A DNA stretch of 64,000 bases, taken from IMG/VR virus record IMGVR_UViG_2925908680_000007, positions 3,851 through 67,850 of that record; one strand, written 5' to 3'. The stretch's first letter is position 1; each line of letters starts with the position of its first letter. Shown here one piece after another: positions 36,001 through 39,000 of the stretch. The position numbers are program-made. Origin of the DNA: a virus. Taxonomy: Duplodnaviria > Heunggongvirae > Uroviricota > Caudoviricetes.

Positions 36001-39000
36001 CGATCTCGATGAAGAAATTATCATCCAGTGGGAGAGCGGAGAGTATGAACCAACTATCAGTATGCTTATCCCACTGGCAAATATTCTTGGCTGCGATCCG
36101 ATGTGGCTGTTAACTGGCGAGGTTACTCCTCCGGAGCAACCAAAAAGTGAGGAGCAGCAACACCATGACGCATCTCAACAAGTTTGCTCCTTATCTCGCG
36201 AAGCTCTGAATTTTGCATGTGAATATGCAAAAGCTGCTGCCGAAAAAGAATTAGCGCAATAACAATAAATATTCCCTGAATGTTTATTACGGTTTTATCG
36301 CCGGGGATTGTTGCAACCTTTATTCGCAGGAGATTATGTTATGACTTTCCTGAAACATAAGGCATCGTATAAAACTGCCTGCCTCATTGCACAACATGGA
36401 GATTCTTATCTTCATATAGCCAACCTGTATTTGCGCAAAGCATATGGGAGATAAGTCAATGGAAGAAAAACAACAAAACATAACACATAAAAAAGTAAGA
36501 GTGTTGCTAACCATTGAAAATGGTGAAGTAATTTACTCAAAACATCTGTTGGATAATGAATTCGTTGGCTGCATGGATACATTTCTGTGGATGGCAAAAA
36601 GAGCGGGTTACACGATTATTCCACCAGCAAAGGAGCAAACATTATGAATCATTCAGAGTTCCGACCAGAAGTTACGCCACATGGCATAAAAATTGGCAAT
36701 ACAACCATTGATTATGTTGAGGCCGTACAGCGGCTTAATGATGGTGAATACGATTATCCAAATTCACGCGGTTTAAGCATTCTCCAGTGCCTGGCAGAAG
36801 CCGATGAGTCCGGGATTTTAGAAAACTGTTCTATCGATATGAAGGTTGCACAGTGGCGCTGGCTGTATGTAACGGTATTTATTAATGAAGAGGAGTATAA
36901 GAACGGCACCATTGATATCCCTAACGATAACGGAACTACAGATCGCGCAGTTATTTATAAGGGGAAGCATGGTTGCATGAGTATATACCCAGGACCACTT
37001 CGCATTGCCCTGCAAAACCATGTCGAATGGGGATTTATTGAAAAATATGGCGAAGCTGAAGGCATGGGGCGAGTTCTGTTTCTCTATCAAAAAATGCTCA
37101 TCGCAGATCCTGATAATGGTTTCATTGTCTCTGCTATGGGGCGCGAAGGGCTTGAACTCCTTCTGGATGAAATGATTAACGACCTGAATACTCATAGTAT
37201 GCCAGAAGCGCCAGTGACACATTAAATATTAAGAAGAATATAATTCTTCCGTTTTTTACTAACCGTTTGTATGAAAAGCAACCGTGAATTAAACAGAGTA
37301 AAACTGATTTTAATCCTTGCCACAGTACTGACACTAACTGAAATCATTATTCTCTTTATTGTGCTGTCAGTCGGTTAAAAATATCGGGATACCACAGACC
37401 AATGAGACTGTATTTCACAATAGTAATTTTACTGGCAATTATCGCATGTATTTACGGATTACTTGTTCCGTTCCTTATATCCATGAAGGATACGATAGCA
37501 GTTATTTCTGGCTTTGCACTGGCGTTTCTGACCCCGCCCTGCATTTATGCCATTTACAAGGGTCTTTCTTTCACTAAGGATAAAAGATGAAAAAAATTAT
37601 TTTTGCTTTAGCCATTGTTCTGCCGACTATTGGCCTTGTCGGTTGCGATCGCGTTGAACCAGGTAATGTTGGCATCAAGGTAAATAAACTGGGCGACGAC
37701 AAAGGCGTCGGTGAGGTGGTCGGTGTTGGTCGCTACTGGACTGGCTGGAATACTGAAGTTTACATCTTCCCCACCTTCAAGCAAATGAAGACCTACGATG
37801 AACCGTTCAGTTTCCAGATGAGCGACGGTACAACCATCGGCTATCACATTGGCGTGGCCTACAAAGTTGATCCATCCAAAGTTACCACGGTGTTTCAGAC
37901 CTACCGCAAAGGCGTGGATGACATTACCGACACCGACCTGCGTCAGAAGATCGCCGACGCACTTAACCGACTGGCCAGCAAAATGACCACCGACAAATTT
38001 ATCGACGGCGGCAAGTCTGAGCTGCTGGATGCTGCTCTTAAAGACATTCAGGAAGAAATGACGCCCATCGGTATTCAGGTAATGAGCCTCTCATATGTGG
38101 GTAAGCCGGAGTACCCGCCAACCGTTATCGACAGCATTAATGCCAAAGTCACGGCGAACCAGAAAACACTGCAGCGCGAGCAGGAAGTTAAACAGCGCGA
38201 AGCGGAAGCCAACATGTTGCGCGCGGAAGCTGCCGGACAGGCTGATGCGATTCGCACAAAAGCCCAGGCTGAAGCCGATGCTATTCGTTTACGCGGTGAA
38301 GCTCTGCGCCAGAACCCTGGTGTTATGGAGCTGGAAGCCATCAATAAATGGAACGGCACACTGCCGCAATACATGACCAGCGGCGCCAGTACACCATTTA
38401 TCCAGGTTAAATAACTTATATGCCCGGCAGGTCGCCGGGCTAAGGGAAAAGCAGATGAACACCCATAATGCCCAACCGCAAATAATGAACTATGACCCGA
38501 ATCTGACGTCATGCGGACGCATGACAAAACAAACCGTTCGATTAACTTTCGGGTTATGGGAATACCGCGAAACATTCGAAGTTACTGTCGGCGGCAATCT
38601 GACCGGACTGGATGTTATCAGTTGCGCTATTGAAAGCCTGTACGCAACACTGCCTTATGAAGAAGTCGAGGATGAGCGCACAGGGGGAACAGATATCATG
38701 GCCACCATTAATATTGGCGAACTGATATGTCAGGATGAAGACCTGTCCGGAGAACCCTGGCTTGCCGGGATGCTTATCTCAGCAGAAATTATCAGTATTG
38801 AACCGCTACAAACATACGACTCTGAAGTTCTCACTATTCAGAGAGCAGGAGAAAAATGTTCGCTTTGATTAATCAGGGACAACTGTATACCGACAGTGCC
38901 GGTTACCCGGTAAAAATTATTCGCTGCATAAATAACACTGTGTTGTACAGAAGAATGGATGGGCGAACACAGTCGGTAAAAATAAACGATTTTAATGAAC

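What the first reader, a model, noticed from the sequence alone, without database searches (positions are those of the whole stretch)
37402..38414. Prophage-encoded SPFH/band-7 lipoprotein coupled to a small two-TM protein
Just downstream of the cI-like repressor, a 62-aa membrane protein and a 275-aa lipoprotein with an HflK/C-like coiled-coil tail share an ATGA overlap. Host HflKC modulates FtsH, which degrades lambda CII, so a phage copy could bias the lysis-lysogeny decision or act in superinfection exclusion. This is inference from domain type and position only.
Basis: inference. Interest (0 to 1): 0.55.

Follow-up and report, generated by a model that had tools for sequence, protein, structure and literature searches.

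The report
Phage SPFH lipoprotein with two-helix partner
The Stx2e prophage in this E. coli window carries a real pair of genes, for a tiny two-helix membrane protein and a lipid-anchored SPFH ("membrane cage") protein; the same pair occurs in hundreds of phages, including the strictly lytic model phage N4, and its function is still unknown.

Summary
ORF 37402-37590 encodes a 62-aa hairpin protein with two transmembrane helices. ORF 37587-38414 encodes a 275-aa lipoprotein with a full SPFH architecture (Pfam Band_7 6e-31; Foldseek probability 1.00 to erlin, HflK/C, prohibitin). The two ORFs overlap by ATGA. The window is an E. coli Stx2e prophage like phiP27, and the large gene is phiP27 L05.

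The pair is a conserved phage module. It is gp19-gp20 of lytic phage N4. It also sits in P2-like, P1-like, SSU5-like and rV5-like phages, and at 46-48% identity in Sutterella, Luteibacter and Dyella. All 17 diverse loci and 79 of 80 viral contigs keep the small gene. About a tenth of distant relatives are in-frame fusions of the two proteins, found in lytic-type phage contigs.

It is not an HflK/HflC orthologue and has no NfeD partner. It matches no PADLOC defence model.

My best reading (about 0.35) is a periplasm-facing SPFH scaffold on the inner membrane that protects or excludes at the envelope. Interest is moderate.

The parts
37226..37401 (+). AT-rich intergenic region upstream of the module (33% GC). 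It holds a weak hairpin at 37233-37249 followed by a U6 run at 37251-37257, a possible weak terminator of the upstream gene. No convincing promoter was identified.
   Evidence: hairpin -4.9 kcal/mol, z -1.9; GC. The promoter scan found 11 sites against 10.6 expected from shuffles, so it gives no support.
37402..37590 (+). Gene for the 62-aa two-TM hairpin protein. TM1 is about residues 3-26 and TM2 about 32-52. The conserved motif P23-x-L-I-S27 (37468-37482) lies at the periplasmic end of TM1. The C tail is basic.
   Evidence: phrog_1130, 2.5e-23; 35 homologue clusters; Pro invariant and Ser at least 90% in 25 free and fused sequences; pN/pS 0.24.
37587..37590 (+). ATGA overlap: the stop of the small gene and the start of the SPFH gene, implying translational coupling. 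An AAGGA Shine-Dalgarno lies 8 nt upstream.
   Evidence: The same 4-nt overlap is present in 79 of 79 related viral loci. Overlaps also occur in P88, N4 and phiE125.
37587..37646 (+). Lipoprotein signal peptide with lipobox L-V-G-C (Cys20 codon at 37644-37646). Asp follows at +2, which in E. coli is the inner-membrane retention (Lol-avoidance) signal.
   Evidence: Cys present in 16 of 17 aligned homologues; CD or CE at +1/+2. The +2 rule is established knowledge and was not tested here.
37635..37635 (+). Approximate mosaic junction. Upstream of it (two-TM gene plus signal peptide, 38-39% GC) the sequence is unrelated at DNA level to P88 and the P1-like phages. Downstream (mature SPFH, 52% GC) it is 86-91% identical in nt and 96-98% in aa.
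   Evidence: (matches start at query position 336-341).
37647..38414 (+). Mature SPFH protein: SPFH core (residues about 22-177, 37650-38117), one long helix (178-242, 38118-38312), and a conserved C-terminal motif ...INKWNGTLP...G..TPFIQVK (38313-38411) that probably forms the cap of an oligomeric cage.
   Evidence: W, G and P of the C-terminal motif are invariant across 24 sequences down to 38% identity. pN/pS is 0.03.
38422..38440 (+). GC-rich hairpin 8 nt after the stop codon, with no U tract. It may stabilise the transcript or act as a weak terminator that marks the 3' end of the module.
   Evidence: -17.1 kcal/mol, z -2.6. It was not called as an intrinsic terminator.

Best explanation
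The two genes encode the two subunits of a phage-specific membrane scaffold of the SPFH type.

Shown or directly read from sequence:
- The 275-aa protein is exported and carries a lipobox with Asp+2.
- It has the full architecture of cage-forming SPFH proteins.
- The 62-aa protein is an N-in/C-in helical hairpin.
- The two genes are translationally coupled and syntenic across very distant phages.
- In about a tenth of distant relatives they are fused into one chain: two TM helices, a basic linker, a third TM/lipobox segment, then the SPFH part. This fixes the SPFH domain on the periplasmic face of the inner membrane, next to the hairpin.

Inferred:
- Like HflK/C, prohibitin, erlin and stomatin, the lipoprotein oligomerises into a ring or dome. 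The dome walls off a patch of inner membrane.
- The hairpin protein is its integral-membrane partner inside or at the rim of that patch. It plays the part that the N-terminal TM helix plays in HflK/C, or that NfeD plays for QmcA.
- In lytic carriers the module lies among early, replication or nucleotide-metabolism genes, never in the lysis cassette. It therefore probably acts early in infection. Here it may also act in the lysogen, or on induction from the leftward operon that runs from the immunity region to int.

Most likely role (committed guess): envelope-level protection of the infected or lysogenic cell. That means superinfection exclusion at the DNA-entry step, or buffering of the inner membrane against secondary permeabilisation. 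I do not favour control of CII stability. The fast-evolving, swappable hairpin-plus-signal-peptide cassette would then be the specificity-determining part, in front of a strongly conserved scaffold.
For: Fold and export.

Topology: the positive-inside count; the fusion proteins P0160, P0164, P0167, P0172, P0178-P0181, P0199, P0200 and P0204; the AF2 model of the fusion P0167, with helices 3-30, 36-89 and 101-117 followed by the SPFH part.

Conserved pairing:
- 17 of 17 diverse loci keep the small gene, including Sutterella, Luteibacter and Dyella at 46-48% identity. In two of them an IS element sits between the genes.
- The pair is present in N4 gp19-gp20, PVP-SE1 gp115/gp117 and phiE125 gp44/gp43.
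- 79 of 80 viral contigs carry it.
- The P-x-L-I-S motif is shared by free and fused forms.

Phage-specific and early-region context:
- 386 of 50,697 phage records hold a homologue, both lytic and temperate.
- In N4 it is next to the RNAPII genes and gp18. The N4 lysis cassette is gp60-63.
- In P88 it lies between cox and the replication gene A.
- The fusions sit beside DNA polymerase B, UvsX, DnaB and primase genes.
- The Dyella locus is flanked by phage recombination and helicase families.

Diversifying or swappable membrane cassette: mature SPFH is 96-98% identical while the hairpin is 22-40% identical. There is a GC jump from 38% to 52%, and pN/pS is 0.24 against 0.03.

The literature states that the role is unknown (PMC13239085; PMC8540360).
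Against: - No experiment bears on function.
- Oligomerisation, physical contact between the two proteins and inner-membrane localisation are inferred, not shown.
- The +2 residue varies across the wider family (T, S, D, G, E, F). Some unfused members could therefore be outer-membrane lipoproteins.
- Some lineages lack the hairpin partner. Examples are the FelixO1-like phage M7 and the Bruynoghevirus TL, whose upstream gene is different.
- No similarity to any known exclusion or defence protein was found. PADLOC gave no hit.
- Timing of expression in this prophage is unknown. No promoter was detected above chance.
- Fast evolution of the hairpin could simply reflect weak constraint on TM helices.
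Confidence: 0.35

Rival explanations
1. HflKC mimic. The phage SPFH cage, with its hairpin partner, traps or modulates the host protease FtsH from the periplasmic side. This would change the turnover of FtsH substrates: CII/CIII-type regulators in temperate phages, and membrane proteins, LpxC or sigma-32 in general.
For: - The nearest solved relatives by sequence are HflK (E 2e-4) and prohibitin-2.
- The weak NCBIfam hits are to HflC and HflK.
- The best structural matches are the SPFH cages that face away from the cytoplasm: erlin, HflK/C and prohibitin. From established knowledge, all of these are tied to membrane protein degradation.
- FtsH is universal in bacteria, which fits the very broad host range of the family.
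- In this window the module lies in the regulatory arm of the prophage.
Against: - It is not an orthologue: 25 bits against a cut-off of 134.
- It is a single gene with a lipid anchor. In HflK/C the N-terminal TM helices are part of the assembly.
- The conserved partner is a phage hairpin protein, not FtsH.
- Most carriers are lytic phages or phages without lambda-type CII, so a lysogeny-decision role cannot be general.
- No data on an FtsH interaction exist.
Confidence: 0.2
2. Lysis-timing device. The hairpin protein has the size and topology of a class II holin or pinholin, and the SPFH cage sequesters it or the true holin. This would delay membrane permeabilisation, as in lysis inhibition.
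For: - The small protein is 62-78 aa with two TM helices, N-in/C-in, and a basic C tail, which is holin-like.
- N4, which carries the module, shows lysis inhibition.
- SPFH proteins regulate channels; this is established knowledge for stomatin.
Against: - The module is never in the lysis cassette. Here the holins and endolysin lie about 16 kb away (L001 4143-5180, against the module at L001 20103-21115). In N4 the cassette is gp60-63.
- A selection of more than 60 N4 rapid-lysis mutants reported hits in gp61, gp63, gp50 and the terminal repeat, and none in gp19/gp20.
- It sits in the early gene region of lytic phages.
Confidence: 0.1
3. Abortive-infection or toxin-type defence of the lysogen. 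The hairpin is a membrane-depolarising effector that the SPFH cage holds in check until a second phage infects, by analogy with RexAB.
For: - The location is an accessory-type position in temperate phages. In P1-like RCS47 the pair lies between upl and a tRNA gene next to the dnaB-type helicase gene. From my own knowledge, not tested here, reference P1 has tciABC at that place.
- The membrane cassette diversifies rapidly.
- 571 of 5,426 E. coli genomes carry it, on prophages and phage-plasmids.
Against: - No PADLOC model matches either protein.
- The module is common in strictly lytic phages, where abortive infection makes no sense.
- It is not in the known P2/P4 defence hotspots. In P88 it lies inside the early operon.
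Confidence: 0.1
4. Lysogenic-conversion or virulence lipoprotein. The prophage expresses the lipoprotein, it reaches the surface or outer-membrane vesicles, and it acts on the animal host, as reported for the prophage-island SPFH protein PM0222 of Pasteurella multocida.
For: PM0222 is a 25-35 kDa 'HflK/C-like' protein from a lambda-like prophage. It is found in vesicles, activates TLR1/2, and its deletion attenuates virulence (PMC9872710). The window's phage is a Stx2e-converting phage of pig strains.
Against:
- The family is widespread in lytic phages of environmental and plant bacteria.
- Asp+2 predicts retention in the inner membrane.
- Any lipoprotein is a TLR2 agonist, so that effect may be incidental.
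Confidence: 0.07

Closest known systems
Phage N4 gp19 (68-aa membrane protein) and gp20 (278-aa lipoprotein)
   Same: It is the same two-gene module. The SPFH lipoprotein is 62-66% identical. The upstream hairpin protein has two TM helices and the same P-x-M/L-V/I-S motif, and the genes overlap.
   Different: N4 is strictly lytic, and the pair sits beside the RNAPII genes. The hairpins are only 28% identical, and the +2 residue is Tyr rather than Asp. Neither N4 gene has a published function that I could find.
E. coli HflK/HflC, the FtsH-modulating SPFH cage
   Same: Both have an SPFH core, a long helix and a C-terminal cap region. Both domains are on the periplasmic face of the inner membrane. 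HflK is the best PDB sequence match and is among the top structural matches.
   Different: About 17-18% identity in the structural alignment. The scores lie far below the HflK/HflC equivalog cut-offs. It is one gene rather than a K/C paralogue pair, with a lipid anchor rather than an N-terminal TM helix. It is phage-borne and has a hairpin partner. Binding to FtsH is unknown.
SPFH-NfeD operons (QmcA-YbbJ, Pyrococcus stomatin PH1511 with PH1510, FloT-YuaF)
   Same: In both, a small membrane protein is encoded next to and co-expressed with an SPFH protein. Occasional fusions of the two are known for NfeD and are seen here. QmcA-YbbJ is a structural match for the SPFH part (8z5g, E 2.4e-8).
   Different: The partner here has only 62 aa. 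It has no NfeD/OB-fold domain and no protease domain, and it matches no Pfam family. The SPFH domain faces the periplasm, not the cytoplasm. The database label 'serine protease' on this family appears to be a transferred NfeD/STOPP annotation; no protease family matches at significance.
Prohibitin and erlin complexes
   Same: These are the top structural matches. Their SPFH cages also lie on the non-cytoplasmic side of the membrane.
   Different: They are eukaryotic hetero-oligomers anchored by a TM helix. Identity is 14-17%.
Early envelope proteins of phages that exclude superinfection (T4 Imm and Sp, T5 Llp, HK97 gp15, P22 SieA)
   Same: This is a functional analogy only: small inner-membrane or lipoprotein products, made early or from the prophage, that act in the envelope.
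   Different: No sequence or fold relationship was found or tested. None of them contains an SPFH domain. The comparison rests on my own knowledge.

Membership tests
SPFH / Band 7 superfamily | The sequence matches the Band_7 profile above the curated threshold. | tested here: met
   PF01145 at 108.3 bits against a cut-off of 23.6, covering residues 22-208 and profile positions 2-176 of 176.
SPFH / Band 7 superfamily | SPFH alpha/beta core followed by a long helix, as in the cage-forming members. | tested here: met
   AF2 model with pLDDT 79 and helix 178-242. Foldseek probability 1.00 to erlin, HflK/C, prohibitin, stomatin and flotillin.
SPFH / Band 7 superfamily | Forms large homo- or hetero-oligomeric rings or cages on a membrane. 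| not testable with these tools
   Only monomer prediction was available. The low-confidence but conserved C-terminal motif is compatible with an inter-subunit cap.
HflK / HflC (FtsH modulators) | Scores above the NCBIfam equivalog cut-offs for HflK or HflC. | tested here: not met
   hflC 25.5 bits against 134.4; hflK 23.4 bits against 159.4.
HflK / HflC (FtsH modulators) | Two adjacent paralogous SPFH genes, each with an N-terminal TM anchor. | tested here: not met
   There is a single SPFH gene with a lipobox signal peptide. The neighbour is a 62-aa hairpin protein.
HflK / HflC (FtsH modulators) | Physical complex with FtsH. | not testable with these tools
   This needs pull-down or cryo-EM.
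SPFH-NfeD operon | The partner protein carries the NfeD C-terminal OB-fold domain, with or without a ClpP-type protease domain. | tested here: not met
   The partner has no Pfam hit at E<=0.01 and is too short at 62 aa. The N-terminal parts of the fusion proteins also match no family.
Bacterial lipoprotein retained in the inner membrane | Signal peptide with a lipobox [LVI][ASTVI][GAS]C. | tested here: met
   L-V-G-C at residues 17-20. The Cys is conserved in 16 of 17 close homologues.
Bacterial lipoprotein retained in the inner membrane | Asp at +2 (Lol avoidance in E. coli). | tested here: met
   Residue 21 is Asp here and in most enterobacterial homologues. The residue varies in the wider family. 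Actual localisation was not tested.
Phage module 'two-TM hairpin + SPFH' (PHROG 1130 + PHROG 200; N4 gp19-gp20) | Both proteins match the two PHROG families. | tested here: met
   phrog_1130 at 2.5e-23 and phrog_200 at 1.2e-114.
Phage module 'two-TM hairpin + SPFH' (PHROG 1130 + PHROG 200; N4 gp19-gp20) | The hairpin gene lies directly upstream on the same strand, overlapping or abutting, and carries the P-x-[LM]-[IV]-S motif. | tested here: met
   ATGA overlap, with motif PFLIS at residues 23-27. The same arrangement is seen in 17 of 17 diverse loci and 79 of 80 viral loci.
Holin (class II / pinholin) | Small protein with two TM helices, N-in/C-in, and a charged C tail. | tested here: met
   Topology is predicted only.
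Holin (class II / pinholin) | Encoded in the lysis cassette next to the endolysin or spanins, and required for lysis. | tested here: not met
   The prophage's holin and endolysin genes are about 16 kb away (L001 4143-5180 against the module at L001 20103-21115). The N4 lysis genes are gp60-63, not gp19.
Known anti-phage defence systems (PADLOC-DB v2) | Either protein matches a defence-system model. | tested here: not met
   No hit at E<=0.1 for either protein.

The most novel reading that the evidence does not exclude
The hairpin-plus-SPFH pair is a widespread, previously unrecognised two-component envelope device of phages, with N4 gp19-gp20 as its type. It builds a lipid-anchored cage on the periplasmic face of the inner membrane early in infection. 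In this reading the conserved cage is the scaffold and the rapidly exchanged hairpin cassette sets the specificity. The device would act as a new kind of superinfection-exclusion or membrane-sealing system, or it would capture a universal inner-membrane machine such as FtsH. It would be the first SPFH complex with a defined role in virus-host conflict.
Probability: 0.25. Interest if true: 0.75.

Novelty: new variant of a known kind. Interest (0 to 1): 0.5.

Why it matters
SPFH proteins are found in all domains of life. Their cage structures have only recently been solved, and for most bacterial members the physiological role is still unclear.

This is a compact version carried by phages. It has one scaffold gene and one 62-aa membrane partner, and natural fusions prove that the two belong together. 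It is present in about 0.8% of sequenced phage genomes, in about 10% of complete E. coli genomes and in the genetically tractable phage N4. Papers from 2021 and 2026 state explicitly that its role in phages is unknown.

If it is an exclusion or membrane-protection device, it would add a new mechanism to phage-phage competition and would matter for phage-therapy cocktails. If it targets FtsH, it would be a general host-takeover strategy.

In this particular window it is an ordinary, conserved accessory module of Stx2e phages. It is not a peculiarity of this strain.

Tried and rejected
- PADLOC scan of both proteins and three neighbours: no defence hit for the pair.
- NCBIfam: only sub-threshold HflK/HflC hits.
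- Pfam on the hairpin and on the N-terminal parts of eight fusion proteins: no family and no NfeD.
- Rfam on 34-41 kb: nothing.
- Promoter and terminator scan: counts equal to the shuffled expectation, so the module's own promoter and its timing in the lysogen remain undetermined. The flanking hairpins are suggestive only.
- Literature: nine searches found no functional study of phiP27 L05, N4 gp19/gp20, YPMT1.49c or any other member. YPMT1.49c appears only in a list of candidate Y. pestis virulence-network genes.
- Lysis-inhibition role in N4: rejected as unlikely, because a screen of more than 60 rapid-lysis mutants did not report these genes.
- PM0222 of Pasteurella: it could not be tied to this family because I had no sequence.
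- 'No small ORF' in the Shigella and E. coli loci L005 and L006: this turned out to be an IS insertion between the two genes, not absence.
- Temporal class from PAK_P3/KPP10 transcriptomics: these phages did not appear among the listed hits, so I dropped this line.
- The 'serine protease' database annotation: rejected. No protease domain is detectable. The only such trace is phrog_11227 at E 0.0013, on the coiled-coil region.
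Full report
WHAT IS THERE

The window is E. coli DNA. The query stretch is 100% identical to pig strain cq9. It carries an Stx2e-converting prophage of the phiP27 type.

On the + strand a run of genes leads from the LexA/S24-type repressor (34897-35628) to the integrase (39394-40593). Within it lie ORF 37402-37590 (62 aa) and ORF 37587-38414 (275 aa). They overlap by ATGA, and an AAGGA ribosome-binding site precedes the second ORF. The large gene is phiP27 L05, at 97.5% nt identity. The repressor is 1.8 kb upstream with several ORFs in between, so 'just downstream' is loose.

THE LARGE PROTEIN

- It passes Pfam Band_7 at 108 bits, E 6e-31, and is a member of phrog_200 'lipoprotein'.
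- Its N-terminus is a lipoprotein signal peptide with lipobox LVG|C followed by Asp. By established knowledge, Asp at +2 is the E. coli inner-membrane retention signal.
- An AF2 model (pLDDT 79) shows the SPFH core, a single 65-residue helix and a low-confidence but highly conserved C-terminal segment.
- Foldseek places it with the full-length cage formers erlin, HflK/C, prohibitin and stomatin, at probability 1.00 and 14-18% identity.
- By sequence, the only solved relatives are HflK (E 2e-4) and prohibitin-2.
- It is not an HflK or HflC orthologue: 25.5 and 23.4 bits against cut-offs of 134 and 159.
- The common database label 'serine protease' has no support.

THE SMALL PROTEIN

- It is a hairpin of two TM helices and belongs to phrog_1130.
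- It has no Pfam or NfeD domain.
- Charge distribution supports an N-in/C-in topology.
- It is a real gene. It is intact with the same 4-nt overlap in 79 of 80 related viral contigs, and pN/pS is 0.24.

THE PAIR IS A CONSERVED PHAGE MODULE

The same arrangement occurs in the following places.

- P2-like phage P88 (gp11-gp12), inside the early operon between cox and A.
- P1-like RCS47, where the small ORF is unannotated.
- SSU5/pMT1-type phage-plasmids, and prophages of Pantoea, Lelliottia and Chimaeribacter.
- Sutterella, Luteibacter and Dyella, at 46-48% identity.
- Shigella flexneri SFBU1023 and E. coli ECMA0423 looked like exceptions, but they carry an IS element inserted between the two genes.
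- Lytic phage N4 has the module as gp19-gp20, at 62-66% identity with the same motif.
- rV5-like PVP-SE1 and Burkholderia phiE125 also have a hairpin gene with the motif.
- Some lineages do not. In FelixO1-like M7 and Bruynoghevirus TL the upstream gene is different.

An alignment of 25 free and fused hairpins shows an invariant Pro and a nearly invariant Ser, in the motif P-x-L/M-I/V-S at the periplasmic end of TM1.

FUSIONS

A full HMMER scan of 1.8 billion cluster representatives found 229 clusters at E<=1e-30. Among the 150 best, at least 14 are in-frame fusions. Their order is hairpin with the same motif, basic linker, third hydrophobic segment (usually still carrying a lipobox), then the SPFH part.

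Their closest relatives are unfused, so fusion arose repeatedly. The fusions sit in lytic-type phage contigs beside DNA polymerase B, UvsX, DnaB, primase and NAD-salvage genes. The AF2 model of the fusion P0167 gives three TM helices and then the SPFH fold.

The fusions show that the two proteins work together. They also fix the SPFH domain on the same side of the inner membrane as the hairpin loop, which is the periplasm.

DISTRIBUTION

- 386 of 50,697 phage records encode a homologue. They include N4-like, rV5-like, FelixO1-like, LUZ24-like, phiCbK-like and crAss-like phages, Lak megaphages and many temperate phages.
- 571 of 5,426 complete E. coli genomes carry it, on prophages (421 places) and on plasmids (241 places).
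- Distant chromosomal copies are also in phage context.

MOSAICISM (UNEXPLAINED)

- Between this prophage, P88 and RCS47 the mature SPFH protein is 96-98% identical. The hairpins are only 22-40% identical and the signal peptides 30-42%.
- DNA similarity starts at about window position 37635, near the lipobox.
- GC content jumps there from 38-39% to 52%.
- The scaffold is under very strong purifying selection (pN/pS 0.03), and the hairpin less so (0.24).
- The membrane cassette is therefore either a swappable specificity element or simply weakly constrained.

FUNCTION

No experimental study exists in the searchable literature. Two papers say the role in phages is unclear (PMC13239085; PMC8540360).

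The HflK-to-FtsH-to-CII idea has been floated before. The module's abundance in obligately lytic phages, and in temperate phages without lambda CII, contradicts it as a general role. FtsH binding itself remains untested.

A lysis-timing role is unlikely. The module is never in a lysis cassette, and a hunt for N4 rapid-lysis mutants did not report gp19/gp20. An abortive-infection role does not fit the lytic carriers or the lack of PADLOC hits.

A prophage SPFH protein of Pasteurella (PM0222) is expressed in lysogens, is found in vesicles and affects virulence. I could not verify that it belongs to this family.

I therefore commit, at about 0.35, to an early-acting SPFH scaffold on the inner membrane, facing the periplasm, with the hairpin as its membrane subunit. 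Its role would be envelope protection or superinfection exclusion. The architecture itself (two subunits, periplasmic face, phage-specific module) I hold at about 0.75.

VERDICT

The thing is a member of a widespread but uncharacterised phage module. It is a new variant of the SPFH-plus-partner theme, distinct from HflK/C and from SPFH-NfeD. Interest is 0.5. It is ordinary for this prophage, but it is a well-defined, testable open question with N4 as a ready model.

Noticed in passing
window 40727-40752: GGTTCAACTCCCGCCAGCTCCACCA looks like the 3' end of ssrA (tmRNA). It would be an att-site remnant between the Stx2e prophage integrase (39394-40593) and a second integrase of the P4/CP4-57 type (40937-42136). 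That suggests tandem integration of a phage and a satellite at ssrA. ARAGORN finds no complete tmRNA in the window. The identification of ssrA rests on my memory of its sequence.
   Followed up: partly
window ~42137-44850 (- strand): In the identical cq9 region, RefSeq annotates genes for a DUF2326 protein, an 'ABC-three component system middle component 6' and two small proteins directly after the P4-like integrase. This is a candidate defence cargo in the satellite's hotspot. psu, delta, Icd-like and primase genes follow.
   Followed up: no
L005 5027-6828 and L006 (Shigella flexneri SFBU1023, E. coli ECMA0423): In L005 an IS element is inserted exactly between the hairpin gene and the SPFH gene. 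It alters the last residues of the hairpin protein and uncouples the two genes. L006 shows the same lack of an adjacent small ORF and is presumed to be the same; its ORFs were not examined.
   Followed up: partly
protein cluster P0113 (175 contigs, ~110-kb phage-plasmids): The lipobox Cys is replaced by Tyr (IIGYD). This widespread allele therefore cannot be lipidated and must be anchored or released in another way.
   Followed up: no
window 38455-38868: The DUF5406 gene downstream of the module is an intact 137-aa ORF with a full-length Pfam match (1.4e-21). RefSeq flags the identical cq9 copy as a frameshifted pseudogene.
   Followed up: no
window 34315-34566: A bssS-family (biofilm regulator) gene sits inside the prophage next to the immunity region. 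It lies just before a strong terminator-like hairpin at 34595-34623 and may be a lysogen-expressed moron.
   Followed up: no
L004 3231-3467 (phage RCS47) and L002 (phiP27 RefSeq/GenBank): The hairpin gene is not annotated in the RCS47 and phiP27 records, although the ORF is present and conserved. In phiP27, overlapping ORFs are annotated instead.
   Followed up: partly
proteins P0370, P0374, P0389, P0423: This is a third anchoring variant of the family. It has a charged cytoplasmic N-terminal extension and a single uncleaved TM helix, with no lipobox and no hairpin motif.
   Followed up: no
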